Origin: Chiloscyllium plagiosum
Lineage: Eukaryota
DNA: 64,000 nucleotides
Reading direction: 5' to 3'
Assembly: GCF_004010195.1 (NCBI RefSeq)
Contig: NC_057760.1
Location: 2,208,343-2,272,342 of the forward strand
The position numbers and the translations under genes were made by a program. Positions within the stretch are counted from its first letter, which is position 1. Every line of letters begins with the position of its first letter. The notes below the pieces were generated by a model that searched no databases, was not told where the DNA came from, and saw only the letters and a list, made by a program, of their open reading frames with translations. Shown here in pieces: positions 10,798 to 51,965 of this stretch.

Positions 10798-11190
10798 CAA
10801 CCCTGTGCTGTCCCTGCCCCGGGAGGGTTTGACTGGGGGGGGGGGGGGGGGGGGAACAGTGTAGGGGGNNNNNNCCCCATGCTGTCCCTGTCCCTGGGAG
10901 TGTTTTGATGGGGGACAGTGTAGAGGGAGCTTTACTCTGTATCTAACCCCGTGCTGTCCCTGTCCCCGGGAGTGTGTGATGGGGGAACAGTGTAGAGAGA
11001 GCTTTACTCTGTATCTAACCCCGTGCTGCCCCTGTCCTGGGAGTGTTTTAATGGGGGATGGTGTAGCGAGAGCTTTACTCTCAATCCAACCCCGTGCTGT
11101 CCCCGTCTTGGGAGTGTTTGGTGGGGGAGGGACACTTAGAGAGAGCTTTACCCGGTATTTAACCCTGTGCTGTCCCCGTCCTGGGGGTGT
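10798..11190 (+). repeat. ~65-bp minisatellite family
   Basis: Unit gtgctgtccctgtcctgggagtgtttgatggggacagtgtagagggagctttactctgtatctaaccc. Confidence 0.8.
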
Positions 11191-21118: not shown

Positions 21119-24100
21119 AGCGCGAGGGAGAGCGCGAGGGAGAGCGCGAGGGAGAGCGCGAGGGAGAGCGCGAGGGAGAGCGCGAGGGAGAGCGCGAGGG
21201 AGAGCGCGAGGGAGAGCGCGAGGGAGAGCGCGAGGGAGAGCGCGAGGGAGAGCGCGAGGGAGAGCGCGAGGGAGAGCGCGAGGGAGAGCGCGAGGGAGAG
21301 CGCGAGGGAGAGCGCGAGGGAGAGCGCGAGGGAGAGCGCGAGGGAGAGCGCGAGGGAGAGCGCGAGGGAGAGCGCGAGGGAGAGCGCGAGGGAGAGCGCG
21401 AGGGAGAGCGCGAGGGAGAGCGCGAGGGAGAGCGCGAGGGAGAGCGCGAGGGAGAGCGCGAGGGAGAGCGCGAGGGAGAGCGCGAGGGAGAGCGCGAGGG
21501 AGAGCGCGAGGGAGAGCGCGAGGGAGAGCGCGAGGGAGAGCGCGAGGGAGAGCGCGAGGGAGAGCGCGAGGGAGAGCGCGAGGGAGAGCGCGAGGGAGAG
21601 CGCGAGGGAGAGCGCGAGGGAGAGCGCGAGGGAGAGCGCGAGGGAGAGCGCGAGGGAGAGCGCGAGGGAGAGCGCGAGGGAGAGCGCGAGGGAGAGCGCG
21701 AGGGAGAGCGCGAGGGAGAGCGCGAGGGAGAGCGCGAGGGAGAGCGCGAGGGAGAGCGCGAGGGAGAGCGCGAGGGAGAGCGCGAGGGAGAGCGCGAGGG
21801 AGAGCGCGAGGGAGAGCGCGAGGGAGAGCGCGAGGGAGAGCGCGAGGGAGAGCGCGAGGGAGAGCGCGAGGGAGAGCGCGAGGGAGAGCGCGAGGGAGAG
21901 CGCGAGGGAGAGCGCGAGGGAGAGCGCGAGGGAGAGCGCGAGGGAGAGCGCGAGGGAGAGCGCGAGGGAGAGCGCGAGGGAGAGCGCGAGGGAGAGCGCG
22001 AGGGAGAGCGCGAGGGAGAGCGCGAGGGAGAGCGCGAGGGAGAGCGCGAGGGAGAGCGCGAGGGAGAGCGCGAGGGAGAGCGCGAGGGAGAGCGCGAGGG
22101 AGAGCGCGAGGGAGAGCGCGAGGGAGAGCGCGAGGGAGAGCGCGAGGGAGAGCGCGAGGGAGAGCGCGAGGGAGAGCGCGAGGGAGAGCGCGAGGGAGAG
22201 CGCGAGGGAGAGCGCGAGGGAGAGCGCGAGGGAGAGCGCGAGGGAGAGCGCGAGGGAGAGCGCGAGGGAGAGCGCGAGGGAGAGCGCGAGGGAGAGCGCG
22301 AGGGAGAGCGCGAGGGAGAGCGCGAGGGAGAGCGCGAGGGAGAGCGCGAGGGAGAGCGCGAGGGAGAGCGCGAGGGAGAGCGCGAGGGAGAGCGCGAGGG
22401 AGAGCGCGAGGGAGAGCGCGAGGGAGAGCGCGAGGGAGAGCGCGAGGGAGAGCGCGAGGGAGAGCGCGAGGGAGAGCGCGAGGGAGAGCGCGAGGGAGAG
22501 CGCGAGGGAGAGCGCGAGGGAGAGCGCGAGGGAGAGCGCGAGGGAGAGCGCGAGGGAGAGCGCGAGGGAGAGCGCGAGGGAGAGCGCGAGGGAGAGCGCG
22601 AGGGAGAGCGCGAGGGAGAGCGCGAGGGAGAGCGCGAGGGAGAGCGCGAGGGAGAGCGCGAGGGAGAGCGCGAGGGAGAGCGCGAGGGAGAGCGCGAGGG
22701 AGAGCGCGAGGGAGAGCGCGAGGGAGAGCGCGAGGGAGAGCGCGAGGGAGAGCGCGAGGGAGAGCGCGAGGGAGAGCGCGAGGGAGAGCGCGAGGGAGAG
22801 CGCGAGGGAGAGCGCGAGGGAGAGCGCGAGGGAGAGCGCGAGGGAGAGCGCGAGGGAGAGCGCGAGGGAGAGCGCGAGGGAGAGCGCGAGGGAGAGCGCG
22901 AGGGAGAGCGCGAGGGAGAGCGCGAGGGAGAGCGCGAGGGAGAGCGCGAGGGAGAGCGCGAGGGAGAGCGCGAGGGAGAGCGCGAGGGAGAGCGCGAGGG
23001 AGAGCGCGAGGGAGAGCGCGAGGGAGAGCGCGAGGGAGAGCGCGAGGGAGAGCGCGAGGGAGAGCGCGAGGGAGAGCGCGAGGGAGAGCGCGAGGGAGAG
23101 CGCGAGGGAGAGCGCGAGGGAGAGCGCGAGGGAGAGCGCGAGGGAGAGCGCGAGGGAGAGCGCGAGGGAGAGCGCGAGGGAGAGCGCGAGGGAGAGCGCG
23201 AGGGAGAGCGCGAGGGAGAGCGCGAGGGAGAGCGCGAGGGAGAGCGCGAGGGAGAGCGCGAGGGAGAGCGCGAGGGAGAGCGCGAGGGAGAGCGCGAGGG
23301 AGAGCGCGAGGGAGAGCGCGAGGGAGAGCGCGAGGGAGAGCGCGAGGGAGAGCGCGAGGGAGAGCGCGAGGGAGAGCGCGAGGGAGAGCGCGAGGGAGAG
23401 CGCGAGGGAGAGCGCGAGGGAGAGCGCGAGGGAGAGCGCGAGGGAGAGCGCGAGGGAGAGCGCGAGGGAGAGCGCGAGGGAGAGCGCGAGGGAGAGCGCG
23501 AGGGAGAGCGCGAGGGAGAGCGCGAGGGAGAGCGCGAGGGAGAGCGCGAGGGAGAGCGCGAGGGAGAGCGCGAGGGAGAGCGCGAGGGAGAGCGCGAGGG
23601 AGAGCGCGAGGGAGAGCGCGAGGGAGAGCGCGAGGGAGAGCGCGAGGGAGAGCGCGAGGGAGAGCGCGAGGGAGAGCGCGAGGGAGAGCGCGAGGGAGAG
23701 CGCGAGGGAGAGCGCGAGGGAGAGCGCGAGGGAGAGCGCGAGGGAGAGCGCGAGGGAGAGCGCGAGGGAGAGCGCGAGGGAGAGCGCGAGGGAGAGCGCG
23801 AGGGAGAGCGCGAGGGAGAGCGCGAGGGAGAGCGCGAGGGAGAGCGCGAGGGAGAGCGCGAGGGAGAGCGCGAGGGAGAGCGCGAGGGAGAGCGCGAGGG
23901 AGAGCGCGAGGGAGAGCGCGAGGGAGAGCGCGAGGGAGAGCGCGAGGGAGAGCGCGAGGGAGAGCGCGAGGGAGAGCGCGAGGGAGAGCGCGAGGGAGAG
24001 CGCGAGGGAGAGCGCGAGGGAGAGCGCGAGGGAGAGCGCGAGGGAGAGCGCGAGGGAGAGCGCGAGGGAGAGCGCGAGGGAGAGCGCGAGGGAGAGCGCG

Positions 24101-27100
24101 AGGGAGAGCGCGAGGGAGAGCGCGAGGGAGAGCGCGAGGGAGAGCGCGAGGGAGAGCGCGAGGGAGAGCGCGAGGGAGAGCGCGAGGGAGAGCGCGAGGG
24201 AGAGCGCGAGGGAGAGCGCGAGGGAGAGCGCGAGGGAGAGCGCGAGGGAGAGCGCGAGGGAGAGCGCGAGGGAGAGCGCGAGGGAGAGCGCGAGGGAGAG
24301 CGCGAGGGAGAGCGCGAGGGAGAGCGCGAGGGAGAGCGCGAGGGAGAGCGCGAGGGAGAGCGCGAGGGAGAGCGCGAGGGAGAGCGCGAGGGAGAGCGCG
24401 AGGGAGAGCGCGAGGGAGAGCGCGAGGGAGAGCGCGAGGGAGAGCGCGAGGGAGAGCGCGAGGGAGAGCGCGAGGGAGAGCGCGAGGGAGAGCGCGAGGG
24501 AGAGCGCGAGGGAGAGCGCGAGGGAGAGCGCGAGGGAGAGCGCGAGGGAGAGCGCGAGGGAGAGCGCGAGGGAGAGCGCGAGGGAGAGCGCGAGGGAGAG
24601 CGCGAGGGAGAGCGCGAGGGAGAGCGCGAGGGAGAGCGCGAGGGAGAGCGCGAGGGAGAGCGCGAGGGAGAGCGCGAGGGAGAGCGCGAGGGAGAGCGCG
24701 AGGGAGAGCGCGAGGGAGAGCGCGAGGGAGAGCGCGAGGGAGAGCGCGAGGGAGAGCGCGAGGGAGAGCGCGAGGGAGAGCGCGAGGGAGAGCGCGAGGG
24801 AGAGCGCGAGGGAGAGCGCGAGGGAGAGCGCGAGGGAGAGCGCGAGGGAGAGCGCGAGGGAGAGCGCGAGGGAGAGCGCGAGGGAGAGCGCGAGGGAGAG
24901 CGCGAGGGAGAGCGCGAGGGAGAGCGCGAGGGAGAGCGCGAGGGAGAGCGCGAGGGAGAGCGCGAGGGAGAGCGCGAGGGAGAGCGCGAGGGAGAGCGCG
25001 AGGGAGAGCGCGAGGGAGAGCGCGAGGGAGAGCGCGAGGGAGAGCGCGAGGGAGAGCGCGAGGGAGAGCGCGAGGGAGAGCGCGAGGGAGAGCGCGAGGG
25101 AGAGCGCGAGGGAGAGCGCGAGGGAGAGCGCGAGGGAGAGCGCGAGGGAGAGCGCGAGGGAGAGCGCGAGGGAGAGCGCGAGGGAGAGCGCGAGGGAGAG
25201 CGCGAGGGAGAGCGCGAGGGAGAGCGCGAGGGAGAGCGCGAGGGAGAGCGCGAGGGAGAGCGCGAGGGAGAGCGCGAGGGAGAGCGCGAGGGAGAGCGCG
25301 AGGGAGAGCGCGAGGGAGAGCGCGAGGGAGAGCGCGAGGGAGAGCGCGAGGGAGAGCGCGAGGGAGAGCGCGAGGGAGAGCGCGAGGGAGAGCGCGAGGG
25401 AGAGCGCGAGGGAGAGCGCGAGGGAGAGCGCGAGGGAGAGCGCGAGGGAGAGCGCGAGGGAGAGCGCGAGGGAGAGCGCGAGGGAGAGCGCGAGGGAGAG
25501 CGCGAGGGAGAGCGCGAGGGAGAGCGCGAGGGAGAGCGCGAGGGAGAGCGCGAGGGAGAGCGCGAGGGAGAGCGCGAGGGAGAGCGCGAGGGAGAGCGCG
25601 AGGGAGAGCGCGAGGGAGAGCGCGAGGGAGAGCGCGAGGGAGAGCGCGAGGGAGAGCGCGAGGGAGAGCGCGAGGGAGAGCGCGAGGGAGAGCGCGAGGG
25701 AGAGCGCGAGGGAGAGCGCGAGGGAGAGCGCGAGGGAGAGCGCGAGGGAGAGCGCGAGGGAGAGCGCGAGGGAGAGCGCGAGGGAGAGCGCGAGGGAGAG
25801 CGCGAGGGAGAGCGCGAGGGAGAGCGCGAGGGAGAGCGCGAGGGAGAGCGCGAGGGAGAGCGCGAGGGAGAGCGCGAGGGAGAGCGCGAGGGAGAGCGCG
25901 AGGGAGAGCGCGAGGGAGAGCGCGAGGGAGAGCGCGAGGGAGAGCGCGAGGGAGAGCGCGAGGGAGAGCGCGAGGGAGAGCGCGAGGGAGAGCGCGAGGG
26001 AGAGCGCGAGGGAGAGCGCGAGGGAGAGCGCGAGGGAGAGCGCGAGGGAGAGCGCGAGGGAGAGCGCGAGGGAGAGCGCGAGGGAGAGCGCGAGGGAGAG
26101 CGCGAGGGAGAGCGCGAGGGAGAGCGCGAGGGAGAGCGCGAGGGAGAGCGCGAGGGAGAGCGCGAGGGAGAGCGCGAGGGAGAGCGCGAGGGAGAGCGCG
26201 AGGGAGAGCGCGAGGGAGAGCGCGAGGGAGAGCGCGAGGGAGAGCGCGAGGGAGAGCGCGAGGGAGAGCGCGAGGGAGAGCGCGAGGGAGAGCGCGAGGG
26301 AGAGCGCGAGGGAGAGCGCGAGGGAGAGCGCGAGGGAGAGCGCGAGGGAGAGCGCGAGGGAGAGCGCGAGGGAGAGCGCGAGGGAGAGCGCGAGGGAGAG
26401 CGCGAGGGAGAGCGCGAGGGAGAGCGCGAGGGAGAGCGCGAGGGAGAGCGCGAGGGAGAGCGCGAGGGAGAGCGCGAGGGAGAGCGCGAGGGAGAGCGCG
26501 AGGGAGAGCGCGAGGGAGAGCGCGAGGGAGAGCGCGAGGGAGAGCGCGAGGGAGAGCGCGAGGGAGAGCGCGAGGGAGAGCGCGAGGGAGAGCGCGAGGG
26601 AGAGCGCGAGGGAGAGCGCGAGGGAGAGCGCGAGGGAGAGCGCGAGGGAGAGCGCGAGGGAGAGCGCGAGGGAGAGCGCGAGGGAGAGCGCGAGGGAGAG
26701 CGCGAGGGAGAGCGCGAGGGAGAGCGCGAGGGAGAGCGCGAGGGAGAGCGCGAGGGAGAGCGCGAGGGAGAGCGCGAGGGAGAGCGCGAGGGAGAGCGCG
26801 AGGGAGAGCGCGAGGGAGAGCGCGAGGGAGAGCGCGAGGGAGAGCGCGAGGGAGAGCGCGAGGGAGAGCGCGAGGGAGAGCGCGAGGGAGAGCGCGAGGG
26901 AGAGCGCGAGGGAGAGCGCGAGGGAGAGCGCGAGGGAGAGCGCGAGGGAGAGCGCGAGGGAGAGCGCGAGGGAGAGCGCGAGGGAGAGCGCGAGGGAGAG
27001 CGCGAGGGAGAGCGCGAGGGAGAGCGCGAGGGAGAGCGCGAGGGAGAGCGCGAGGGAGAGCGCGAGGGAGAGCGCGAGGGAGAGCGCGAGGGAGAGCGCG

Positions 27101-29394
27101 AGGGAGAGCGCGAGGGAGAGCGCGAGGGAGAGCGCGAGGGAGAGCGCGAGGGAGAGCGCGAGGGAGAGCGCGAGGGAGAGCGCGAGGGAGAGCGCGAGGG
27201 AGAGCGCGAGGGAGAGCGCGAGGGAGAGCGCGAGGGAGAGCGCGAGGGAGAGCGCGAGGGAGAGCGCGAGGGAGAGCGCGAGGGAGAGCGCGAGGGAGAG
27301 CGCGAGGGAGAGCGCGAGGGAGAGCGCGAGGGAGAGCGCGAGGGAGAGCGCGAGGGAGAGCGCGAGGGAGAGCGCGAGGGAGAGCGCGAGGGAGAGCGCG
27401 AGGGAGAGCGCGAGGGAGAGCGCGAGGGAGAGCGCGAGGGAGAGCGCGAGGGAGAGCGCGAGGGAGAGCGCGAGGGAGAGCGCGAGGGAGAGCGCGAGGG
27501 AGAGCGCGAGGGAGAGCGCGAGGGAGAGCGCGAGGGAGAGCGCGAGGGAGAGCGCGAGGGAGAGCGCGAGGGAGAGCGCGAGGGAGAGCGCGAGGGAGAG
27601 CGCGAGGGAGAGCGCGAGGGAGAGCGCGAGGGAGAGCGCGAGGGAGAGCGCGAGGGAGAGCGCGAGGGAGAGCGCGAGGGAGAGCGCGAGGGAGAGCGCG
27701 AGGGAGAGCGCGAGGGAGAGCGCGAGGGAGAGCGCGAGGGAGAGCGCGAGGGAGAGCGCGAGGGAGAGCGCGAGGGAGAGCGCGAGGGAGAGCGCGAGGG
27801 AGAGCGCGAGGGAGAGCGCGAGGGAGAGCGCGAGGGAGAGCGCGAGGGAGAGCGCGAGGGAGAGCGCGAGGGAGAGCGCGAGGGAGAGCGCGAGGGAGAG
27901 CGCGAGGGAGAGCGCGAGGGAGAGCGCGAGGGAGAGCGCGAGGGAGAGCGCGAGGGAGAGCGCGAGGGAGAGCGCGAGGGAGAGCGCGAGGGAGAGCGCG
28001 AGGGAGAGCGCGAGGGAGAGCGCGAGGGAGAGCGCGAGGGAGAGCGCGAGGGAGAGCGCGAGGGAGAGCGCGAGGGAGAGCGCGAGGGAGAGCGCGAGGG
28101 AGAGCGCGAGGGAGAGCGCGAGGGAGAGCGCGAGGGAGAGCGCGAGGGAGAGCGCGAGGGAGAGCGCGAGGGAGAGCGCGAGGGAGAGCGCGAGGGAGAG
28201 CGCGAGGGAGAGCGCGAGGGAGAGCGCGAGGGAGAGCGCGAGGGAGAGCGCGAGGGAGAGCGCGAGGGAGAGCGCGAGGGAGAGCGCGAGGGAGAGCGCG
28301 AGGGAGAGCGCGAGGGAGAGCGCGAGGGAGAGCGCGAGGGAGAGCGCGAGGGAGAGCGCGAGGGAGAGCGCGAGGGAGAGCGCGAGGGAGAGCGCGAGGG
28401 AGAGCGCGAGGGAGAGCGCGAGGGAGAGCGCGAGGGAGAGCGCGAGGGAGAGCGCGAGGGAGAGCGCGAGGGAGAGCGCGAGGGAGAGCGCGAGGGAGAG
28501 CGCGAGGGAGAGCGCGAGGGAGAGCGCGAGGGAGAGCGCGAGGGAGAGCGCGAGGGAGAGCGCGAGGGAGAGCGCGAGGGAGAGCGCGAGGGAGAGCGCG
28601 AGGGAGAGCGCGAGGGAGAGCGCGAGGGAGAGCGCGAGGGAGAGCGCGAGGGAGAGCGCGAGGGAGAGCGCGAGGGAGAGCGCGAGGGAGAGCGCGAGGG
28701 AGAGCGCGAGGGAGAGCGCGAGGGAGAGCGCGAGGGAGAGCGCGAGGGAGAGCGCGAGGGAGAGCGCGAGGGAGAGCGCGAGGGAGAGCGCGAGGGAGAG
28801 CGCGAGGGAGAGCGCGAGGGAGAGCGCGAGGGAGAGCGCGAGGGAGAGCGCGAGGGAGAGCGCGAGGGAGAGCGCGAGGGAGAGCGCGAGGGAGAGCGCG
28901 AGGGAGAGCGCGAGGGAGAGCGCGAGGGAGAGCGCGAGGGAGAGCGCGAGGGAGAGCGCGAGGGAGAGCGCGAGGGAGAGCGCGAGGGAGAGCGCGAGGG
29001 AGAGCGCGAGGGAGAGCGCGAGGGAGAGCGCGAGGGAGAGCGCGAGGGAGAGCGCGAGGGAGAGCGCGAGGGAGAGCGCGAGGGAGAGCGCGAGGGAGAG
29101 CGCGAGGGAGAGCGCGAGGGAGAGCGCGAGGGAGAGCGCGAGGGAGAGCGCGAGGGAGAGCGCGAGGGAGAGCGCGAGGGAGAGCGCGAGGGAGAGCGCG
29201 AGGGAGAGCGCGAGGGAGAGCGCGAGGGAGAGCGCGAGGGAGAGCGCGAGGGAGAGCGCGAGGGAGAGCGCGAGGGAGAGCGCGAGGGAGAGCGCGAGGG
29301 AGAGCGCGAGGGAGAGCGCGAGGGAGAGCGCGAGGGAGAGCGCGAGGGAGAGCGCGAGGGAGAGCGCGAGGGAGAGCGCGAGGGAGAGCGCGAG
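21119..29394. repeat. Perfect 12-bp tandem array (AGCGCGAGGGAG)n, ~690 copies
   Basis: Directly visible with no variant unit seen. Followed by (GAGT)n/(GAGAGT)n to ~29462. Confidence 0.95.
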
Positions 29395-29423
29395 TGAGTG
29401 TGAGTGAGTGAGTGAGTGAGTGA

Positions 29424-38605: not shown

Positions 38606-39484
38606 CATCGTAATTAAGGGCGTAGGAGCAGAAGTGGTGTATTCACGTCATCGACTCTGTTCTGCCACTCAATGAGCACTTACCAATTTTGAAAATAGTC
38701 AAAAATGAAGCAAAGAACCACAGAAATCTGGACAAAAACCAAAACTGCTGGGGAAATTCAGCAGGTGTGACAGCAGCCGTGGAGAGAAATCAGTGAAAAC
38801 ATTTTGGGGTACAGCGAATCTTCTACAGAGCAGTTCTACTGGTTGGAGTTTTGAGAATTAGGCAGCATAGTCTGACAATTATGGTCAGACTGTTCAGGAG
38901 AGATATTAGGAAGCACTTCTCCATAGAAAGGGTCAGTGGAATTTTGGAACTTCCACAAATAGAAGTTGACACTAGATCTGTTAGTTTCAATCTGACATTT
39001 TATACATTATTTTAATCCTGTAAAATTTTATGTGTTTCTGTGAATGACATTTTTAACAGAAAGATCTGTCCCTTTTGACCCTGATTGTGTCTACACCACC
39101 AGATTTGTAAAGACCTCTTAATAAAGTTAGGTCACGTGAGTTTGGGGGAGAGCTTTCCAATTAAAATAGCAATTGACTTAACAGCAGAAGACAGAGAGTG
39201 GTTGTGGAGGATTGCTTTTTGGACTGGAGGCCTATCCCCCAGCGCTGTGCCACATGGATTGGTTCTGGGTACTCCACTGGTCACAGGCCTCCAGTCTGAA
39301 AAACAACCCTCCACCACCACCCTCTGTCTTCTACCTTTGAGCCAGTTCTGTATCCAAATGGCTCCTTCTCCCTGTATTCCATGAGACCTAAACAGGATGT
39401 TGTTGGGTACGGAAGGTTTGAGTAATAAAAAAAGGCTGGATAGGCTGGGACGTTTTTTTCACTGGAGTGTAGGAGGTTGAGGGA

Positions 39485-39797
39485 CTAGACTAGACTACAT
39501 TACAGTGTGGAAACAGGCCCTTCGGCCCAACAAGTCCACACCGACCCGCCGAAGCGCAACCCACCCATACCCCTACATTTACCCCTTACCTAACACTACG
39601 GGCAATTTAGCATGGCCAATTCACCTGACCTGCACATGTTTGGACTGTGGGAGGAAACCGGAGCACCCAGAGGAAACCCACGCAGACACGGGGAGAACGT
39701 GCAAACTCCACACAGTCAGTCGCCTGAGGCGGGAATTGAACCCGGGTCTCTGGCACTGTGAGGCAGCAGTGCTAACCACTGTGCCACCGTGCCGCCC
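39485..39797 (-). mobile_element. HE1/V-SINE, well preserved, inside a CR1 fragment
   Basis: Full-length copy splitting the CR1 3' region (39390-40150). Confidence 0.8.
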
Positions 39798-40451
39798 GCA
39801 ACCCGATAGAAGTTTATAAAGGAATGAGAGGAATAGATAGCGTTAATAATAATTGTCTTTTTCTCTAGGGTGTAGGATTTGAAGAGCTGGGGCACATGTT
39901 TTAAGGTGAGAGAAGTGAGAGTTAAAAAAAGACATGAGAGGCAATTGTTTTACACAGAGAGTGGTGCAGGTTGGAATGAACTTCCCGAGGAAGTAATGGA
40001 TGAGAGTACAATTACAACATTTGAAAGACATTTGGATAGGTCAATGAAGAGGAAAGGGTTTGGAGGGATATGGGACAGGAGCAGGTAGGTGGGACTGGTT
40101 TAGTTTGGGATTGTGTTCAGCATGGACTGGTTGGACCGAAGGGCCTGTTTCGGTGCTGTATGACTCAATGATTTTGGACTGTACTAAAAATGGATGAAGA
40201 TACTGCTTTAAACCAAGGCTACACCCTTATGTGTGGACAACACAGCAGAAACATACAGCTGGGAAGAGGAAGCATCTCTCTCTGTTTCTCTCCCTATGTA
40301 TAAAATGTCAAGCTTTCGGAGTACAGCCTTTTCATCAGGTGAAATGAAAGGGAATTTATGTAAATTCTGTGTCTGTGTGCTTCCCTCTCACTTCATCTGA
40401 CTAAAGGGCTATGCTCCGAAAGCTTGTGATTTCAAATAAACCTGTTGGACG

Positions 40452-41164
40452 TGTTGTGGGGAGAATCACCCGCCCCGGAGTCACAGTCGGGGTTCAACAA
40501 CAGGGTTTATTGTACCAGGAAATACCGGAGCTCTGGGGAGAGAAAGATACCGACAGCACAATGGTCAGCTGCAAGTCTTCTCTCAACCCAGAGCACATGT
40601 CAAGATACTTTTATACATTTTGTAATAATAGGTCAGTGATGAGGTTATTGTCTTTGTAACATGGTTTATTTATTGTGAACATTGTAGAATTGTTAATAAT
40701 TTTGATGCAGTCATTGTCAGTTCCAGCGCAGCACGGTTGTTGTCAGTTTCAGCACAGACATTGTCAGTTTCAGTGTCTGCGTGGACGTCCATTGCTATAG
40801 TAATGGGTGCTAATCGCTTTTCCTGAGAAGGATGATTCCTGCAGCCCTGGCTGTTAGCACTGTGTATTAAGTCCGTATCAAACAGTTAGCATTTCTATCA
40901 AAGGTGTTGGCTGGACCCAGAGACTTTGGCGGGCAGTGTATGCTACTCGTGTATTCTCTCCCACACCCGCCTTAACTAGTCAACTGGGTTGTGAGTGCAT
41001 TGTGCTGGCATTCTGGTGGGCCCAGGCAGTATCTGTATTTGCTCTGCTGTCTCTCTCCATATTGCAGTCCGGCGGCCATCTTGTGTGTCAAGTTGGCCAA
41101 CCGATGGCTCAGCGGCCATCTTGTGTGTCCATATGCCTAGTGTAACCCTGCCCCGTGCCATCTC
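40452..41164 (-). repeat. ERV 3' LTR (first ~10 nt of U3 missing)
   Basis: Homologous to the 5' LTR. Minus-strand TATAAAA at ~40609-40615 and AATAAA at 40506-40511; ends CA at 40452. Confidence 0.85.
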
Positions 41165-44100
41165 GGTTGTGTTGTCGGTTTTCCCTCCGGGATGACCATC
41201 TTGTCCGCCGTTCCTGTCCGTGCCTGGGGAATGGTCAATGACATGAGTTTGGTCACAGGGGTCTCTAAACAGTTTTAGTTGGGTCCAGTTCTTCCATATG
41301 CCTTTTCCTTTAATGTCTGGGCAGGCCCAGGTGTCCCACTTATTACACCATCGTATGGCCCATTCTATTTCGGGGCAAAGCCTGGGTTTGTCGGGCAGTG
41401 CTCACACCGGCTTCCTGCAGTTGGGACCTCGGGCAAGATTCTGAATTCCCCTGCCCTGTCCTTTTTTTGGCCTGTTTGTCAATTACAGATTTCCGCATCC
41501 CTTTCAATTGGGCGCTTAATTCTATCACATATCACCGAATTTAGTGGGCCCACATCAGTGCCACCTGTGATTATTGACTCTGGCCTTTCTCGGTCGGTCA
41601 TTAATTCATATGGTGTTAGCCCGGTTCCCTGATGGCTCTTAATCTCATTAGTACGGCTGGCAGCTCTTCAGCCCATGTTCTGCCTGAGGCTTGCATAGCC
41701 TTAGCTAAAGCATTTTTGAGTGTCCTATTCATTCCCTCTGGGGGTGATAGGGGATGTGAAATTTTTGTCTAATGCCGAGTAATTGGCAGACAGTCTTCAT
41801 GACCTTGTCTGTAAAATGCGTCCCTTGGTCGGAGTCGATCTGGAGGGGTAACCCCCCCCCCCCAAAACCTCGGGATTAACTCCTCCCTGAATATTCTGGC
41901 TACAGTGGTTACAGTGTAGCTTTTGCTCAGGAATACTTCTACCCACTGGGTGAATTGGTCTATGATGACCAGGCAGTACCTTTTCCCACGGGAGCATGGT
42001 ATTGGCCCTATAAAATCTATCTGAAGGTGTTCCCAGGGTCCCCTAGGTCTGGGCTGGTGTCCCATCCTAACTTTTACGGGTCTCCCTGGGTTATGTTGTG
42101 CCCAAACCATGCATCTGCGGCAGTACGTGGCCAGATCTCTCCCCATTCCCTCCCACCGCCACTCTCTCCCTAGGCTTGCTATCATGGCCTCTCTACCTGT
42201 ATGGGAGAGCGTGTGGTGCAGTTCTGTGTACATGTTGGTGCTACCACCTTGCCTGCTTGCCTCCAGACACCATCCTCCCCTTTGATTGCTCCCTACAGTC
42301 TCCATTGCTCTCTCTCATCCTGCAGGGTGTCCTCCTGGAGCTGCTGAATTTGGATAGCGTCTTTTGCTAATTCAATAGTGGCTATTGCAGCCTCGTCAAT
42401 GGTTTCCTGTTCCAGGGCTTTCTGAGCTGCTCGGTCTGCTGCCTGGTTTCCTTTGAATTTTAGCCAACCTGGACTCTGCTGGTTCCTTTTAATGGGCTTT
42501 TATTTTTATTACTACAGCCTCTTTTGGCCGTTCACTGGTACGCAATAGTGCCTGCATTTTTAATTGGTGTATGATAGGGGTTCCCCCCACTGCTCCCCCC
42601 TCCTTTTACCCCATACCACCATGTCGTCATGGACTACACTGAAAGCATATTGACTGTCTACATATATATTCACGGTTTCTCCTTTTCCTAGCTCCATTAT
42701 TTTGGTAAGTGCTACCAGTTCTGCTCCCTGTGCAGACTGACTTCCATCAATCCTTCCAGACATAACTGTTTCTAACTTATCATTTACCACAGCCCATCCA
42801 ATCGGGGCGACCCTGCTACGTATTTCTGTGACCCGTTCATGAAGAGGGTCTCCTCGGCTTTGTCGGGGCAGGGGGGGGAATATCTTTTACTCGTCCCCCT
42901 ATCTTCATCCCCATCTATATCCACACAGTTGTGCGGTTCCCCCGTGTCCAGAATTCCCTCAGCTGGGTTTTCTCCCGTATCCCTAACTATTACCACAGAC
43001 CGACTTGGGAGTAAAAGGACTGCTTCCCACTTTGCCTTTCTCATATTGGAGACAGCCCTCAATTTCCCTGTGTTTAGCATCTCTACTTGGGTGTGTTTAG
43101 TGTGTAGGGTAACATTCCCTGTCATTACTAAGGGCTCGCTGACTCTAACGGCCCAAGCAGCACAGTCTAAGGCTGCTATGCACCTGGGCAACCCGGTGAC
43201 AACTGGCCCTTCTGTATTTGAGAAGTATCCCACCGTGACCACCGTGGAGTAAAACCCTCCCTCATTATTACAGTGCATGTGAATATCCTTGCTGGGATCT
43301 GGCAGCCCTAGCCCGGGGGCCGATATGAGTTGGGTTTTAAGCTGTGCTGCCCTCTGGTAAATCTAATCTCTTCAGAATGTTGCTCATCACCCTGTGAAAA
43401 ATAGTGGGCTTTGGCAGGCGAGTCCAAGTGTACTGCCTGTCCCTTACTGTAAAGTGAATTTGTTCTGGGACTCAGGGTGTAACGGGATAGACCAGAAACT
43501 GTTGACTCTGTCTAAAATTGTAAATATCTTGTGCTCACCATTTAAAATAGTGGCGGGCTGTGCTACAATGGGTGCAATTTGGGGGTGAGCTTATTTAGTC
43601 CTGTATAATCAATGGTGAGCCTGAAGCTCCCATCAGGCTTTAGTACTGGCCACATCGGGGAATTAGTTGTACTTGTGGTTTCTTTCAGGATTCCCTGTCT
43701 CACTAGTCCTTGCACTATCTCCACAACTGCTTTTTCTGCTTTGGGTTCTATTGGGTATTGCCAGTGGGGCTTATGCTCCAGTCTGGGAACCCTTATTGGG
43801 TCTGTGTTAATTAGACCTGTATTTAACTTTGTTTCTGCCCAGGCTCTGGGTACGGAGGCGTAGATGGCTCCGAATCCCCCCTTTTCAAGGTTCGAGTCCC
43901 TACTGGTGGCCGTAGCCACTTTGTTTCAAGGTGACTTGTAAGTTTCCCAATCTCGGTCTTTCAACTGACCTGTCTGGGCCAAATCAGCTTCCCTTTTGCA
44001 CAATTGATTAGAACTTTATATTCTTTCAAGAGATCATTGCCCATTACGGTGCCATCATTATTTTAGCATACATAGAATTTCATGGGGATAGATATTGTTT

Positions 44101-44309
44101 ATTTCTACGAGGGTAGTTTCGTTTAGGTAAGCTGGCGTTTTATCCCCACCTACCCCAGTTAAGTGAATCATTTTATTTGTGTGGGGTAAGGGTAAGATTG
44201 TGATGGATACAGCTGCTCCTGTGTCTACCAGCATCTCAAATTTCCTCCCTCCTATTCCTGCGTAAATTTTCCCCTCCCCCTTACCCTCATGAATGGGGAC
44301 AGCTGGTTG
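41165..44309 (-). pseudogene. pol: ERV pro-pol (disrupted)
   Basis: Protease MLVDTGAAVS; RT NSPMWPVLKPDGSFRLTIDY and QYTWTRLP; tether VGYFS...GLPRC; RNase H SAQGAELVAL..VNIYVDSQYA; integrase HHCC-like region plus PWEHLQIDF, and a C-terminal GPY motif. Confidence 0.9.
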
Positions 44310-45878
44310 TCAGGTTCCGTGGTGTTCCACGTGGTGTTTGAGGGTGCCCCATGCTTTTCCCAGCACACTGCTTCTATGTGTCCTGTTCTTTTGCAGTGGC
44401 TGCATTATTTTACATTGCTATCTCCTGCTCGTGGGGCCCTACACTCTCTGGCAAAGTGTCCCTATTGGCCACAGTTGTGGCAGAATCGGTTTATTCTACT
44501 CTCACCTCCATTCCGGTCGGCTGCTTTGTCAGGTCTTGCCTTTGTTGCAGGAGCTTCTGCCTTCTGCACTCCCCAACCTACTCAACTAGGTCTTCTTAAT
44601 CCTGGGACATTATTACTCCCATTTTCAGGATGGCTTGGTAGGTGTTAGAGAGCCCATCTTTAAAAGCATGGCTGAATGCCTGGTTCCCCTCCAATCTGGG
44701 ATCGCTTGCCCTGAGCATTCCTGATAGACCCTAAATAATCATTTCCCATATTCAGAGGCTCCTTCCCCTTTAAGTTGCTTAGTGGTCGTGATCTTGCTCC
44801 AGTTCATGGGAGCATTTCCTAGCACCCTCCGGATTTGCTCTTTAAAGTTGGCGAAGGCGTTTGCTGGGCATCTATCTCAGCTGTAAGGGTGACGGCATGT
44901 GTCCACCATCCTCTTCCATAGTCTCGGGCTGCTGTGGCTTCGGGTCCGTCTGCTACCTGTCTCCATTTGTCCACTGGGCAGGCTGCCCGGACCAGCTGGT
45001 CTATGTCCCTCAGGTGTAGTTGGTGCCCTACCCATACACTATCCAGCTCTTTCCAGAACCTGGTGTTTGCACTCCAGGGCTGTAATTTGCCCAGGGAGGC
45101 CATAATTTGCTGCCTCTCCTCTGGGGTGAAGGGTTTATAATTCGCTTTGGGCTGTGAGTCTGTTCCTCCTCTGGTAACGGGCGCTAAGTTATACACTTGC
45201 ACGGTTCGTCCAATAGAGGGAGCTGGATGGTTTTGTAGGAGGGGAGAGAGTCAATCTCCTTTTCCTCTTTTACTTTTTCTAATCTTTGCTCTAGCTCCTT
45301 TATCCTGTCCTCCAGCTCCTCAATTTGTTCTTGTCCTTTTCTCCACCTGCTCCATCTCCACCTACTTGTTCAATTAGGCCTGCTAACTGGTGCACTAACA
45401 TTACCCTTACCTTTTTAGTTTTATTTCATTTCTGTTTATCTACCCACTGTTGTGCTAATGTCTTGGATAGATCCCAACCACTCTTCTACATTTGCTTGGT
45501 CAACCCTTGTCTGTCTGCCTTGTATTTCTCAATAAGAGAACCTGCAATATCCCCCTCAAATGGGGTGGCACGGTGGCTCAGTGTTAGCACTGCTGCCTCA
45601 CAGCACCAGGGACCCAAGGTTCCAGCCTTGGACGACAGTGTGGAGTTTGCACATTCTCCCCGTGTCCGGGTGCTCCGGTTTCCTTGCACAGTCCAAAGAT
45701 GTGCAGGTCAGGTGAATTGGCCATACTAAATTGCCTATAGTGTTAGGCGCATTCGTCACAGGGAAATGGGCCTGGGTGGGTTACTCTTTGGAGGGTCGGT
45801 GTGGACTGGTTGGGCCGAAGGGCCTATTTCCACACGGTAGGGAATCTAATAATGTAAAAAAAAACTTCGATCTGCCAT
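44252..45878 (-). pseudogene. gag: ERV gag (disrupted)
   Basis: Likely ATG at 45878, split from the rest by a SINE. Coiled-coil EQIEELEDRIKELEQRLEK, capsid MHR-like NWSKITTTKQ, and CCHC knuckles at 44441-44482 and 44363-44404. Confidence 0.8.
45561..45864 (+). mobile_element. HE1/V-SINE inserted in the ERV gag 5' end
   Basis: ggtggcacggtggctcagtgttagcactgctgcc head with an A-rich tail. Confidence 0.8.
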
Positions 45879-46799
45879 TTAGCAGAATGTGTACTCCTGG
45901 ATATTACCAACAGTAAAATGTACCCAATCCAGTGGGAACTTCTCTACCCCCTGGCCACTAATACTGTCCCAGCACCATCCATCCGGCTGTAGCAGCCTCC
46001 TAGCAAGGTGTGCTCTCTACCAGTGGGACGTCTCTACCCTCCCGGCCACCAATGCTAGTTGGTACCTACCGGTCGGCTGGGAATGCTGGCTCAATAGGGT
46101 GTGCTCTCTACCGGGACTCCTCTACCCTCTCGGCCACCTCTACTGACCCAACACCTCCCGATAGGCCCAGAAACCTACCTCTAGCCTGGTGTGCTCTCTA
46201 CCGGTGGGACTCTTTACCCTCCTGGCCACCGCCACTATTCAAGCTCTGTTGTTCTACGATGGACTGACAGGGTATCACGGTTACTCACAGTGTCCACGCT
46301 CCCTACCTCGGTAACCTGCGCTCCACTAGTCAGAGTGGTTTTTGGTCAAAGCGATCAGCTCCTCTTCTTCACCACATTGGAAATTACAACCACAGACAAC
46401 ACCCAACTTTTAACTTAAAGCGTTGTTCGCCCGACTTTGCCACTTGTGCTTCATAGCTCCGAGTGCCCTTGGCACCTCAATTTCCATCACGTTTGGGGGG
46501 GTGGCTACCCCTCTTAACAACCGGTTTAGGGCAGAGTCTTTAAGACACGCACAACCTTGTCCTCTGGCTGTTACAGCACAAGCAGCAGGTTCTTACAACA
46601 GTTAGCACAGTCAAACACTTATTCTCCACAGACATGCACTTAAAATTTTTAACTCAGTACTGGTGCAAATTAGATATTACAATCAGTATACCATTTAAAC
46701 TGTGTCCTTGGCCCAGTCTGACTCTTCCCGATTGCAGATACAAAATGGTTCTTACCCCAGTTCCCCAATCAAGGCCTTCGACCAGGGCGCCAGTAATAA

Positions 46800-46819
46800 G
46801 AACCCTGCTCGCAGCGCCA
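46800..46819 (-). other. Primer binding site complementary to tRNA-Ser(TGA)
   Basis: Plus strand gaaccctgctcgcagcgcca matches the recalled vertebrate tRNA-Ser(TGA) 3' end GAACCCTGCTCGCTGCGCCA with 1 mismatch. It lies 2 nt inside the 5' LTR end. Confidence 0.8.
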
Positions 46820-46821
46820 GT

Positions 46822-47504
46822 TGCTATGGGGAGAATGACCAGCCTCAGAGTCAGAGTCGGGGTTCAATGACAAGAGTTTATTGTACCAGGAAATACCGGA
46901 ACTCCGGGGAGAGAAAGACACCAACAGCACAGTGATCAGCTGCCAGTCTTCTCTCAACCTGGAGCACATGGTTTTGTAATAATAGGTCAGTGATGAGGTT
47001 ATTGTAACATGGTTTGTTTATGGTGAACATTGCAGAATCGTTAATAGTTTCGGTGGAGTCATTGTCAGTTCCAGAGTTTCAGTGCAGATATTGTCAGTTT
47101 CAGTGTCTGCGTGGAAGTCCATTGCTGTGGTATTGGTCACTAATCGCTTTTCCTGAGAAGGACGATTACTGCAGCCCTGGCTATTAGCACTCTGTATTGA
47201 GTCCATATCAAACTGTTAGCATTTCTATCAAAGGTGTTGGCTGGACCCAGACACTTTGGCAGGCAGTGTACGCTACTCATGTGTACTCTCTCCCCCACCC
47301 GTCTTAAACTAATCAACTGGGTTGCGAGTGCATTGTGCTGACATTCTGGTGGTCCCAGGCAGTATCTGTGTTTGCTTTGTTGTCTCTCTCCATATTGTGG
47401 TCCAGCGGCCATCTTGTGTGTCAAGTGGCCAACTGATGGCTCAACAGCCATCTTGTGTGTCCGTGTGTCTAGTGTCACCCTGCCCCATGCCACCTCCCAC
47501 TTCA
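46822..47504 (-). repeat. ERV 5' LTR (683 bp)
   Basis: Minus strand reads TGAAGTGGGAGG...CCCCATAGCA, with AATAAA at 46877-46882. Homologous to 40452-41164. Confidence 0.85.
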
Positions 47505-48300
47505 AACTATAACCTGATATCGTGTGATTTCTGACTTTGTCTACCCCAGTCCAACACTAGCAACTCCAAGTTATGTGTAAACTGCAATTACCTAACAGCT
47601 ACTCCTCTCCCTTTCTCTTTAAGTTATTCACACTGCAAATTTCTGATGAAAGGAAAAGGGCAAAACCATTTTCAGAAGCATGGAAAGCCATAGCCCAGGG
47701 GTAACTGTGGCCTTATGATCAACAGAGTTAGCATAATTTCCCATCATGCATGTCAGACTAACTTTATATAAACACCAGATCGACTTACTGTAAAAGGAAG
47801 AAGTAAAATCAGACTGTTGACCAGTCAAGTGGCTGAGGCTAAAGGTTATTCAACCTCTGCGGTTGCAAAAAGGGATAAAATAGGACTGATAAGAGGAACC
47901 ATGGAAACAAATGTCTCCTGTTCACACGAGTCTCAGAAAGATGAGCTCAGAACTATGAGGATCTTGTGCAAGGGTGGCATGACATTGACCAGTCTTGAAG
48001 ACGGGGAGAAACATTTAAAAGGATCAGAGACATCTTTTATGAGACAGAGCATTGTGAAGAGGAGACCTGAGTTCAGAACATAGAGACAAATACAACTTGT
48101 TGGAGTGAACCAGCCAGTTCATCACGCATGGGTAGTATCTAGACTCGTCTAATAAATAGCATGTAGGTTGTGTGCTTACTAAGAATTAAAGAGTTACTAA
48201 TAAACAGGAAGTTGTATTAAATTCTAATTTGGTTGTCCTTATCTGTCATGAAATTTGAGAACCCACTTCTATTCCTAGTTCTTATGAAAGGTTCTTTGCA

Positions 48301-48605
48301 GAGGCACAGTGGCTCAGTGGTTAGCACTGCTGCCTCACAGTGCTAGGGACCCGGGTCCAATTCCAGCCTTGAACGTCTGTCTGTGCAGAGTTTGCATATT
48401 CTGCCCGTGTCAGTGTGGGTTTCCTCCGGGTGCTCCGGTTTCCTCCCACAGTCCAAAGATATGCAGGTTAAGGGTGGATTGGCCGTGCTAAATTGCCTAT
48501 CGTGTTAGTCAGAGGGAAATGGGTCTGGGTGGGTTACTCTTTGGAGTGTCGGTGTGGACTTGCTTGACCAAAGGGCCTGTTTCCACACGGTAGGGAATCT
48601 ACTTT
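48301..48605 (+). mobile_element. HE1/V-SINE
   Basis: Typical head and body. Confidence 0.8.
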
Positions 48606-50219
48606 AAAAAATGAATCCTCAATTGATGAGTGAAAGACTGAGAAACAGTGTATTTGCACCATTAGTAAGGAGTTGAAAGATAACAACTCATTGAGATCTG
48701 TGACCCAGACTGGTCCCAGAACTTTATTTCTGTTTTCTTTCTTTCCCCACCCATGTTATTCATGTCTTGTCTCTTTATGTTTGTTTGTAGGTGTTAGGGA
48801 ATTTTGACAAAGAGGCAGAATTTAAGTTATTGTATTAGAAATGAGCAATTTAATTGTTTTGTTAACATTTTTAAAAATTTGATTAATAATGGGGTTTTTT
48901 TTTTGTTTATGGAGAAGACCTTGTGTGCACATCTCTTTAACCTGAATCAAACAGATAAAAATCTGACAATTCAGTTGTTTCATCAAATTTTCCATTGCAG
49001 ACAATTCTGGAATTAGTGGGATTTGATTGCAAATGAATTACTTCAGCAAGCTGTGACAGACTGCTTACTTAATGTCAGTCATGGATAAAGTTTAACTTCC
49101 TCCAGCTCAACAGTGGGAAGACTGAAGCTATTATCTTTGATCCTTACCACGATTTTCAATTCCTTACCAATACTTTTAAACTCCCTCCTCATCTTCAATC
49201 GGGCTCATGGTACCGTTCAATCCTGAGGTGAGCTCCTTATTCCAAATCCTCTCCATTACAAAGACTTCCACGTCTGCATAATCTGCCTCTCTACCGTGCC
49301 TTGGACTCTCTACAGCTCAGGCATCTCCAGATTTACTAACAGTAGTGTTGCATTAACTACAGATTGAAAGGTGAGGTCAGAGATTTCATAACTTAAAAAA
49401 CAGTTAGAATGTTGTGGAACTGTCTGCCAACATCTGTTGATAAAGTACACATTTACAGGACCTTCCAGAAAAGACTTGCTTGAAAAACAATGCATTGTAA
49501 AGTGAGTAGGGAACTCAGCCGAAGAGTTAATGAGACAACATGGCTTATGTGGGGTAAACACTTGATAAGTTATACCTTCTGTTTCTGTGCCAAAAAAGGT
49601 TTATGGTTCAAATTGTATGGAACGTAAGAGAGATTTGCAACGACTGAGCCAAGTGTTGTTACAGCGAGTCTGGACACAGTAGACAGGTGAAGACAGTTCA
49701 AAGGTCCAAAACTAGAGGGGCATCACTATTAGGTGTTTGAGAAAAGAAGCAATGGTTATGTGATAGTTAACCTTTATATACAGTGAGTACTTTAGATTCA
49801 GAATGCCCTGCCTGATAGTTTGTTGGAAGGTTCAAAGAAGCCTACAGAAGGAAATTTGTGATAACTGTGAGAGAGAAAAAAAATTGCAGCAGGTGAGTGG
49901 AATTACAAACATATGAATTATGAGTTGCTTGGCTACTTGAACCTGCTCTAACCTGCTCTGTAAATAAGCTCATGACTGATCTGTCTGTGTTTCAAGTTCC
50001 ACCTTCCCACCTATTCCTGAAAGCCTTTGATTCCTTTGTCTAACAAGAATATATCTACCTATATCTTAAAACTACTTGATTACTTCACACCTGCCAACTT
50101 CTGAAGCAGAGAGCTCCAAAGTCATAGAACCTGCTGAGGGAAAACAAATTATCTTTGTCTCTATCCTAAAAGGCAGCTCCTAATATTTTTAAGTAATGCC
50201 CCAAGTTCTAGATTCACCA

Positions 50220-51965
50220 ACAATAGAGTCATAGATGGAAACAAACCCTTTGGACCATGCCGACCAGATAGCCAAAACTGAACTAGTCCCATTTGCCTGT
50301 GTTTGGCCTATTACCCTCTAAACCATTCCTATCCATGTACTTGTCCAAATGTCTTTTAAATGTTTTAATTGTACCAGCCTCCACCACCTCCTCTGGTAGC
50401 TCATTCCATACACGCACCACACTCTGTGTGAAATAGTTACAATAGAGTCATAGACGGAAACAAACCGTTTGGACCAAGCCGACCAGATAGCCAAAACTGA
50501 ACTAGTCCCATTTGCCTGTGTTTGGCCCATTACCCTCTAAACCATTCCTATCCATGTACTTGTCCAAATGTCTTTTAAATGTTCTAATTGTACCAGCCTC
50601 CACCACCTCCTCTGGTAGCTCATTCCATACACGCACCACACTCTGTGTGAAATAGTTGCCCCTTAGGTCCCTTTTAAATCTTCCCCTCTCAACTTAAACT
50701 TATGCTCTATAAGATTGGACTCTCCTACACTGGGGGAAGGACCTTGGATTATTCACTTCATCCATGCCCTTCATCATTTTATAAACTTCTGTAAATTTAC
50801 CCCTCAACCTCCTATGCTCCGGGGAAAAAAGTCCCAGCCTATCCAGCCTCTCCTTCAAACTCAAACCCTCCAGTCTTGGTAACATCCTTTTTTGCACTCT
50901 TCCAGTTTAATAGCATTCTTCCTATGGCAGGGCGACCAGATATGTACAACTGTAACATTTTTAAAATTTTGATTTAAATTATTATTGTCAGATGTACCTA
51001 GGTACAGTGAAAAGTTTTGTTGTGTGTTGCGATAACATGACTCTTGCACTCAATGCTCTGACCCATGAAGGCAAGTATATCAAATGCCTTCTTCACCACC
51101 CTGTCTAACAACGATGACATTTTTGAGGAACTATATACCTGCACCGCTAGGTCTCTCTGTTTGAACAACAGGGTCGAGACTGTGGTGCTGGAAAAGCACA
51201 GCAGGTCAGGCAGCATCCAAGGAGCAGGAGAATCGGCAAAAGCTCTTGGGCCCTCCCATTAAGTGAATAAGCCCTGACCTGGTTTGTCATAGCAAAATGC
51301 AACAGCTCGCCTTTATCTAAATTAAATTACATCTGCCATTCCTCAGGCCACTGGCCCAGTTGATTAAGTTCCTGTTGTATCCTCAGATAATTTCCTTCAC
51401 AGTCCATTGTACCACCAATTTTGGTGTCATCCACCAACTTACTGACCATGCTTTCTATACCCTCATATATAAATGATGAACAACAGCACCGATCCTTGAG
51501 GCACACTGCTGGTGATGGGCCTCCATTCTGAACAACCCTCTACCATCACCTTCTGTCTCCTACTGTTAAGCCAATTTTGTATCCAATTGTCTAGCTCTCC
51601 CTGGATCCCACGTGATCAAACCGTACTAAAGGCCCTGCTAACGTCCATGTAGACAACATCTACCACTCTCCTTCATCTACCTTCTTGGTCATCTTTTCAA
51701 AAACTCAGGTGACAGTGAGGACTGCAGATGCTGGAGATCAGAGTCAAGATTAGAGTGGTGCTGGAAAAGCACAGCAGGTCAGGCACCATCCAAGGAGCAG
51801 GAATATTGATGTTTCGGGCAAAGGCCCTTCACCAGGAATGAAGGGCTTTTGCCCGAAAAGTCGATTTTCCTGCTTCTCGGACGCTGCCTGACCTGCTGTG
51901 CTTTCCAGCACCAGTCTAATCTTTTCAAAAACTCAATCAAGTTTGCGAGAAGTGATTTCCCACAA
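50220..51965 (-). mobile_element. CR1 fragment with nested insertions
   Basis: LDRLGLFSPEHRRLRGKFTEVYKMMKG and related motifs. Confidence 0.8.
51710..51921. mobile_element. Inverted pair of PLE tails inserted in CR1
   Basis: Palindromic arms gtgctggaaaagcacagcaggtcaggc / gcctgacctgctgtgctttccagcac. The sequence tcttttcaaaaactca occurs on both sides (TSD-like). Confidence 0.6.

What the first reader, a model, noticed from the sequence alone, without database searches (positions are those of the whole stretch)
40452..47504. Shark endogenous retrovirus with an unusual feature set
Seen: two LTRs, a tRNA-Ser(TGA)-type PBS, gag with a coiled coil and two CCHC knuckles, and a tether domain followed by a separate RNase H. 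Known: tether plus RNase H is retrovirus-type pol architecture, not typical Ty3/Gypsy; gamma/epsilon-type Gag usually has one knuckle and foamy Gag has none. Inference: the RT N-terminus (WPVLKPDGSFRLTIDY, FWSIPL, QYTWTRLP) looks, from memory, closer to snakehead-retrovirus-like or spuma-related lineages (lokiretrovirus is an alternative). It may be an undescribed chondrichthyan lineage.
Basis: partly seen in the sequence, partly recalled or inferred. Interest (0 to 1): 0.72.

Follow-up and report, generated by a model that had tools for sequence, protein, structure and literature searches.

The report
Dead shark retrovirus, envelope deleted
This is a broken copy of an abundant, likely shark-borne endogenous retrovirus that has lost its envelope gene, while its sister copies keep an envelope resembling that of filoviruses; it likely belongs to an already described fish-and-reptile lineage, so it is a new family member and not a new kind of virus.

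Summary
The provirus is real: minus strand, 40452-47504, two LTRs 89.8% alike, a tRNA-Ser primer site, gag with a coiled coil and two CCHC knuckles, protease, RT, tether, RNase H and integrase. A SINE splits gag, about 0.4 kb of RT (with YxDD) is gone, and about 1.6 kb of env plus the purine tract is gone. Thirteen of 20 sister copies keep an env with a gamma-type transmembrane part closest to filovirus GP2 among solved structures. Trees reject lokiretrovirus (AU p 0.004) and, on whole Pol, foamy (p 0.0006). By eye the closest published element is whale-shark Rh_ty_ERV4, listed in the snakehead-related clade 'Huo' (Xu 2018). Close relatives occur in smooth-hound and horn shark. Each 'unusual' feature has precedent. 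One lead remains: my Pol trees put the lineage on the stem of gamma/epsilon retroviruses and reject a single Huo clade (p 0.004 and 0.035, 26 taxa). Whether the family is already catalogued in Chen 2021 or Repbase could not be checked. The scan had no earlier finding like this sequence. Verdict: new member of a known kind, interest 0.3.

The parts
46822..47504 (-). 5' LTR, 683 bases, TG...CA ends, AATAAA at 46882
   Evidence: 1303 candidates for it in the genome, 40 scored, 79-85% identical over long matches
46800..46819 (-). primer-binding site for tRNA-Ser (TGA or CGA isoacceptor)
   Evidence: exact match to the 3' ends of host tRNA-Ser genes in L033 and L035
45879..46799 (-). leader with three repeats about 90 bases apart (46000-46210)
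   Evidence: repeat family D15; homologous in sister copies
44313..45878 (-). gag, broken: heptad run 45330-45262, capsid-like middle, two CCHC knuckles 44482-44441 and 44404-44363
   Evidence: matches the Gag of a horn-shark relative, E 9e-16. The start codon is inferred from sister copies
45561..45860 (+). SINE-type insert, antisense to the provirus, inside the first codons of gag
   Evidence: 0 of 20 sister copies span this junction; repeated at 37525 and 48300; depth over 1 million in DNA runs. The SINE label is from its tRNA-like head and is recalled, not tested
44310..44312 (-). TGA at the gag/pro junction, followed by CAA; readthrough inferred
   Evidence: TGA in 12 of 14 rows where the junction was found (21 examined); same frame as the protease motif in 7 of 9
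41340..44309 (-). pro-pol, broken: protease (DTG near 44225), RT with an internal deletion at 43345/43344, tether 43344-42830, RNase H from 42846, integrase from 42218
41165..41339 (-). end of pol and a short remnant of the region before env; about 1.6 kb of env and the purine tract are missing at 41165/41164
   Evidence: 7 sister copies hold 1467-1652 homologous bases here; 13 of 20 carry the env TM, the window none
40452..41164 (-). 3' LTR, lacking its first 8 bases
40448..40451 (.). left copy of a 4-base target-site duplication, one substitution
   Evidence: differs by one base from the 4-mer in uninterrupted copies of the host repeat
47505..47508 (.). right copy of the 4-base target-site duplication, one substitution
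   Evidence: as above; the family makes 4-base duplications

Best explanation
The stretch is one dead provirus of a multi-copy endogenous retrovirus family, likely of a shark, that likely lost its envelope gene by deletion after it had inserted. The ancestor would have worked as a simple retrovirus. Transcription ran from the 5' LTR. Reverse transcription was primed by tRNA-Ser (match shown) and by a purine tract (shown in sister copies). Gag-Pol was made by reading through an in-frame TGA (frame shown, readthrough inferred). Integration made a 4-base duplication (shown). Env has a cysteine-flanked internal fusion peptide, a glycan-type heptad stutter and a two-cysteine loop without the third cysteine (shown in sister copies). 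A non-covalent or otherwise atypical SU-TM link is inferred. This copy landed in a host repeat and then took a SINE and two large deletions. The env deletion must postdate insertion, because it also removed the purine tract and the U3 end from which an intact 5' LTR is copied (inference from the standard mechanism). The family belongs with whale-shark Rh_ty_ERV4 and cyprinid and eel ERVs, filed by Xu 2018 in the snakehead-related clade Huo.
For: Architecture. Family size: 274 RT candidates (40 scored, 84-87% identical), 1303 LTR candidates, 152 env-TM matches from 150 scored of 2079 candidates. Private damage: 0 of 20 copies span any of the three junctions. Env in 13 of 20 copies, Pfam TLV_coat and Ebola-like HR1-HR2 below cut-off, E 4e-5 to 1e-4, PDB best hits filovirus GP2, syncytin-2 and a reptarenavirus-type GP2. 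Closest database relatives: a Mustelus asterias protein, 180 of 245 RT residues, and a Heterodontus francisci protein. Trees: inside retroviruses, outside loki, 100/99; with cyprinid ERVs 99/96 on Pol with and without integrase. Rh_ty_ERV4: 24 of 33 residues shared with the window's RT stretch, counted by eye; listed beside the cyprinid and eel ERVs under the Huo label (labels only).
Against: Rh_ty_ERV4 could not be put in my trees, and I saw the published tree's labels, not its branches. My trees do not recover Huo as one clade, so the label is the literature's and not mine. RT alone is weakly resolved: foamy fell inside the same open fork. The window's two flanks match each other at only 2 of 4 bases; the duplication is read through the interrupted repeat. 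No tool named the host. The window's own RT piece was placed only in a quick tree with 23% of columns filled.
Confidence: 0.85

Rival explanations
1. The copy represents an env-less sub-lineage that multiplied inside the genome as a retrotransposon.
For: The window copy has two LTRs and no env. Some sister copies also lack parts of env (L026, L030, L032). Env loss with proliferation is known (cited in Chen 2021).
Against: The deletion also removes the purine tract and the start of the 3' LTR while the 5' LTR start is whole. 0 of 20 copies share the junction. The other env deletions differ in size and place.
Confidence: 0.04
2. It is a foamy-like (clade Tu) element.
For: The window's RT N-terminus scores best on foamy RT structures (E 1.8e-13). 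RT alone does not reject the pairing (p 0.083).
Against: Whole Pol rejects it (p 0.0006). Two CCHC knuckles, gag and pol in one frame, and a gamma-type env; foamy Gag and Env gave no hit in the window or 20 copies. A longer RT stretch scores MLV 129 bits against foamy 122.
Confidence: 0.03
3. It is a lokiretrovirus.
For: Tether plus RNase H and a coiled-coil Gag are shared.
Against: RT pairing rejected (p 0.004). Env is TLV/Ebola-HR type, not paramyxovirus-F type. The tether matches MLV, not Ty3. The loki paper screened five chondrichthyan genomes that I looked up in its table and lists no cartilaginous fish among hosts.
Confidence: 0.01
4. It is an ordinary epsilon-like class I ERV.
For: Two knuckles, TGA junction as in SSSV and ZFERV, an integrase that groups with class I (80/99), and a tether closest to MLV.
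Against: Class I forms its own clade without the family: 100/97 on RT, 100/100 on Pol. An exclusive pairing is weakly rejected on RT (p 0.041).
Confidence: 0.07

Closest known systems
Rh_ty_ERV4, whale shark, clade Huo (Xu et al. 2018, PMC6001957; text parts 1-2 of 5, S2 Fig labels and S2 Data passages seen)
   Same: RT signature (24 of 33 residues with the window's stretch, by eye), two CCHC knuckles, in-frame TGA before the protease, similar protease start.
   Different: A distinct family: exact family motifs were absent from that file. Its env and LTR were not visible to me.
Snakehead retrovirus (SnRV) and CmiERV lineage I of elephant shark (PMC4422223, part 1 of 2 read)
   Same: RT motif style, coiled-coil Gag, stop-codon junction; the horn-shark relative's Gag hits SnRV Gag best (E 1.5e-10).
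   Different: SnRV has one knuckle, a TAG junction and an unrelated 1134-residue env frame; 94 of 245 RT residues shared; its integrase groups with ERV-L and foamy.
XtERV-S of Xenopus (PMC8278194, parts 1-2 of 8 and passages)
   Same: tRNA-Ser primer, LTR of about 700 bases, TGA between gag and pol, short env with a stutter glycan, non-class-I pol with a class-I-type TM.
   Different: ERV-L-like RT (YIDD), dUTPase, no knuckle, and a full CX6CC motif.
Filovirus-sister ERV ectodomains of sharks and skates (Nino Barreat and Katzourakis 2024, PMC11521997; section 11, passages and table rows seen)
   Same: Chondrichthyan ERV env whose best viral match is filovirus GP2; the top Ebola-like_HR1-HR2 hit in this genome is this family.
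   Different: Whether their loci belong to this family was not tested. My TM tree neither shows nor rejects the filovirus sister link (p 0.13). The passages I saw do not place the pol of those elements.
ERVs with gamma-type env in cartilaginous fish (Chen et al., bioRxiv 10.1101/2021.11.23.469661; parts 1-3 of 6 and passages)
   Same: Gamma-type env in 6 cartilaginous fish, over 500 copies in 3, two-cysteine CXnC variants, and SnRV-related pol groups.

Membership tests
Retroviridae-type ERV (against Ty3/Gypsy) | RT nests among retroviruses | tested here: met
   100/99 apart from loki and gypsy rows; PDB scores MLV 129, foamy 122, Ty3 67 bits
Retroviridae-type ERV (against Ty3/Gypsy) | tether plus separate RNase H | tested here: met
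Retroviridae-type ERV (against Ty3/Gypsy) | env between pol and 3' LTR | tested here: met
   met for the family (13 of 20 copies); deleted in the window copy
Clade Huo (Xu 2018), SnRV-related | RT groups with SnRV and ERV-L in one clade | tested here: inconclusive
   not recovered and not rejected on RT (p 0.104); rejected on whole Pol with my proxy sets (p 0.004 and 0.035)
Clade Huo (Xu 2018), SnRV-related | nearest relatives are elements that the paper files in Huo | tested here: met
   eel protein P0005 matches An_ja_ERV1 by eye; Rh_ty_ERV4 by eye; label order in S2 Fig
Lokiretrovirus | RT sister to all other retroviruses | tested here: not met
   AU p 0.004; loki rows identified by motifs against the paper's alignment
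Lokiretrovirus | env like paramyxovirus F (PF00523) | tested here: not met
   TLV_coat and Ebola-like HR1-HR2 instead
Foamy viruses and fish foamy-like ERVs | Pol groups with foamy viruses | tested here: not met
   p 0.0006 on Pol; p 0.083 on RT alone
Foamy viruses and fish foamy-like ERVs | no zinc knuckle, pol expressed apart from gag, foamy-type env | tested here: not met
   two knuckles, in-frame TGA junction, no hit by foamy Gag or Env
Class I (gamma/epsilon) | Pol nests inside the gamma+epsilon clade | tested here: not met
   outside at 100/97 and 100/100
Gamma-type env | ISD-like segment followed by CX6CC | tested here: not met
   ISD-like segment present, but 14 of 14 distinct loops found have I where the third cysteine would be; fits the published CXnC variant
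Gamma-type env | CXXC motif in SU | not tested
   SU is frameshifted in the copies read; no whole relative found
A described Repbase/Dfam or Chen 2021 family | high nucleotide identity to a catalogued consensus | not testable with these tools
   no such library here; preprint supplements closed; journal version not held

The most novel reading that the evidence does not exclude
This shark lineage, with its cyprinid sisters, is an early branch on the stem of all gamma- and epsilonretroviruses, so the snakehead-related 'Huo' group is a ladder and not a clade. It also carries the chondrichthyan envelope from whose kin filoviruses took their fusion subunit. One family would then tie the origin of class I retroviruses to the origin of filovirus GP2.
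Probability: 0.3. Interest if true: 0.6.

Novelty: new member of a known kind. Interest (0 to 1): 0.3.

Why it matters
The copy itself is inert and ordinary. The family matters modestly as a data point for deep retroviral history. It joins a pol that my trees place between snakehead-type and gamma/epsilon retroviruses to an env of the kind published as sister to filovirus GP2. With hundreds of datable copies and relatives in other shark orders, it could test whether clade Huo is a true clade and which retroviral lineage carried the filovirus-like envelope.

Tried and rejected
Single-sequence fold of the window's Gag piece: pLDDT 38, not used, no fold search run. Search for a whole env relative among longer proteins: 1079 candidates, none at E 1e-5, weak evidence. 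First scan of viral contigs with one RT: no locus. Pfam on the RT and Gag pieces: nothing. Rfam on 39000-49000: four microRNA hits far below gathering score. Sequencing runs: no RNA holder listed; one RNA run laid 0 reads, which is no test; no contig bridged the env junction, so the deletions were not confirmed in other individuals. TM tree: shark+filovirus (p 0.13) and shark+reptarenavirus (p 0.125) neither shown nor rejected; alpharetroviral, lizard and tarsier envs were absent. Integrase tree dropped the window's own piece for short coverage. The careful RT tree left out 26 of 69 rows (long branches, fragments, near-duplicates). A co-opted env was looked for only in passing: 21 of the 150 listed TM matches have no stop inside, none in a frame over 199 residues (my count). 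One alignment was mis-framed and not used. Literature: 8 searches found no paper naming this family; one search returned nothing; PMC9040795 had none of my terms; PMC10435555 and PMC10699275 passages added nothing decisive. Earlier scan findings by sequence: none.
Full report
What is there. The element lies on the minus strand from 47504 to 40452. The LTRs align with 598 matches and 68 mismatches, 52 of them transitions, K2P 0.11. Eleven LTR pairs in sister copies give 0.09-0.16, several over partial lengths. With the shark rate assumed in PMC4422223 (2.2e-10, which that paper calls unsure) this would be about 250 million years; a mammalian rate gives about 25. So the age is old but not pinned down. 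The primer site matches host tRNA-Ser genes with TGA and with CGA anticodons equally. Gag, protease, RT, tether, RNase H and integrase are present in pieces over all three frames.

The target site. The two flanks match each other at only 2 of 4 bases. DNA runs showed joints that skip the whole provirus, because it sits inside an abundant host repeat. An uninterrupted copy of that repeat is at window 52861 and in two other loci. Each flank differs from its 4-mer by one base. The family makes 4-base duplications: of 20 LTR loci, 12 had both ends parsed and 10 looked solo; 5 had a perfect 4-mer, 3 had 3 of 4, 2 had 1 of 4, and none had a 5-mer.

The copy is damaged. I compared it with 20 of the 40 best RT matches. 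The window has a 0.3-kb SINE-type insert in the first codons of gag. It lacks about 0.4 kb of RT that holds YxDD in sister copies. It lacks about 1.6 kb before the 3' LTR, together with the purine tract and the first 8 LTR bases. None of the 20 copies spans any of these junctions. Since U3 of both LTRs is copied from the 3' end of the RNA (established mechanism), an intact 5' LTR start means that the env deletion came after insertion.

The family has an envelope. The missing segment is env; 13 of 20 copies carry its TM part. It scores on TLV_coat and Ebola-like HR1-HR2 below the curated cut-offs. Its best solved relatives are filovirus GP2, syncytin-2 and a reptarenavirus-type GP2. After a dibasic site come a cysteine, a hydrophobic stretch, a second cysteine and an N-glycan site in the first heptad. 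That glycan 'stutter' is described for non-mammalian gamma-type envs, filoviruses and snake arenaviruses (PMC9967133 passages). The chain-reversal loop lacks the third cysteine in 14 of 14 distinct loops found, a variant already reported as CXnC. The genome holds at least three related env families. A 107-column TM tree groups the shark envs with filovirus, reptarenavirus and a fish env against gamma and delta (100/99) but does not resolve the order within. PMC11521997 reports chondrichthyan ERV ectodomains as sister to filovirus ones with posterior 0.83.

Expression strategy. A TGA followed by CAA stands between the second knuckle and the protease in 12 of the 14 rows where the junction was found (21 examined). 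It is in the protease frame in 7 of 9. Readthrough is inferred. TGA junctions are known in SSSV, ZFERV, a toad ERV and XtERV-S; SnRV uses TAG.

Placement. References were natural genomes and proteins returned by the tools. L071 was identified as SnRV by a motif from the loki paper's alignment. P0033 is named WEHV-1. Foamy, gamma, delta, loki, ERV-L and gypsy labels rest on motifs and genome layout and are partly recalled. On RT (43 rows, 280 columns) the copies sit with a Mustelus protein (100/96), then with a Heterodontus protein and P0002, inside retroviruses and outside class I. AU tests on RT: with loki p 0.004, Huo as one clade 0.104, with foamy 0.083, with SnRV 0.027, with class I 0.041. 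For whole Pol (26 rows, 884 columns) the database protein P0161, from the same 90% cluster as the Mustelus protein, stood in for the family. The family joins cyprinid ERVs (99/96), and this group joins eel ERV, characin-type ERVs and class I (98/99) without SnRV, ERV-L or foamy. The same shape holds without integrase (95/98). AU tests on Pol: Huo p 0.004 and, without the characin pair, 0.035; with foamy 0.0006; with SnRV 0.16. Caveats: few taxa, long branches, proxy sets for Huo chosen after seeing a first tree, several tests without correction, and known domain swaps in RNase H and integrase.

What is known. Xu 2018 lists whale-shark Rh_ty_ERV4 next to cyprinid, eel and turtle ERVs under clade Huo (labels only). 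Its sequence shows the same RT signature, two knuckles and an in-frame TGA (by eye). Jern 2005 already calls SnRV intermediate between epsilon and spuma-like viruses and gives epsilon two zinc fingers. The host is inferred to be a shark from its nearest named relatives; no tool named it.

Verdict. This is a new member of a known kind, interest 0.3. The stem-class-I position together with the filovirus-like env is the one lead worth a denser tree (probability 0.3, interest 0.6 if true).

Noticed in passing
window 21119-29398: An 8.3-kb array of a 12-base purine-rich unit, 690 copies at 99% match; so uniform that it may be an assembly artefact or a very young satellite.
   Followed up: no
window 40297-40451 and 47505-47580: The provirus interrupts an abundant host repeat with a 52-base inverted repeat (I12); an earlier scan note calls a hairpin insert elsewhere in this window Penelope-like, which I did not test for this one.
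   Followed up: partly
L103, L104, L105 near 1500-1670: Three other env families in this genome share the filovirus-like TM start and the two-cysteine loop; their pol genes were not examined.
   Followed up: partly
P0159, P0161, P0001: A close sister family (73-80% identical in RT) has long open pro-pol frames, one annotated in Mustelus asterias, so the lineage was likely active more recently in other sharks.
   Followed up: partly
L029, before its 5' LTR: A purine tract precedes the 5' LTR, which suggests tandem proviruses sharing an LTR.
   Followed up: no
L025:6723-7456: An unrelated ERV env on the opposite strand, 46% identical to the env of fish retrovirus contig L038.
   Followed up: no
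window 7745-8716, 9649-10110, 10875-11192, 50220-50657: Tandem arrays with units of 57, 230, 72 and 219 bases.
   Followed up: no
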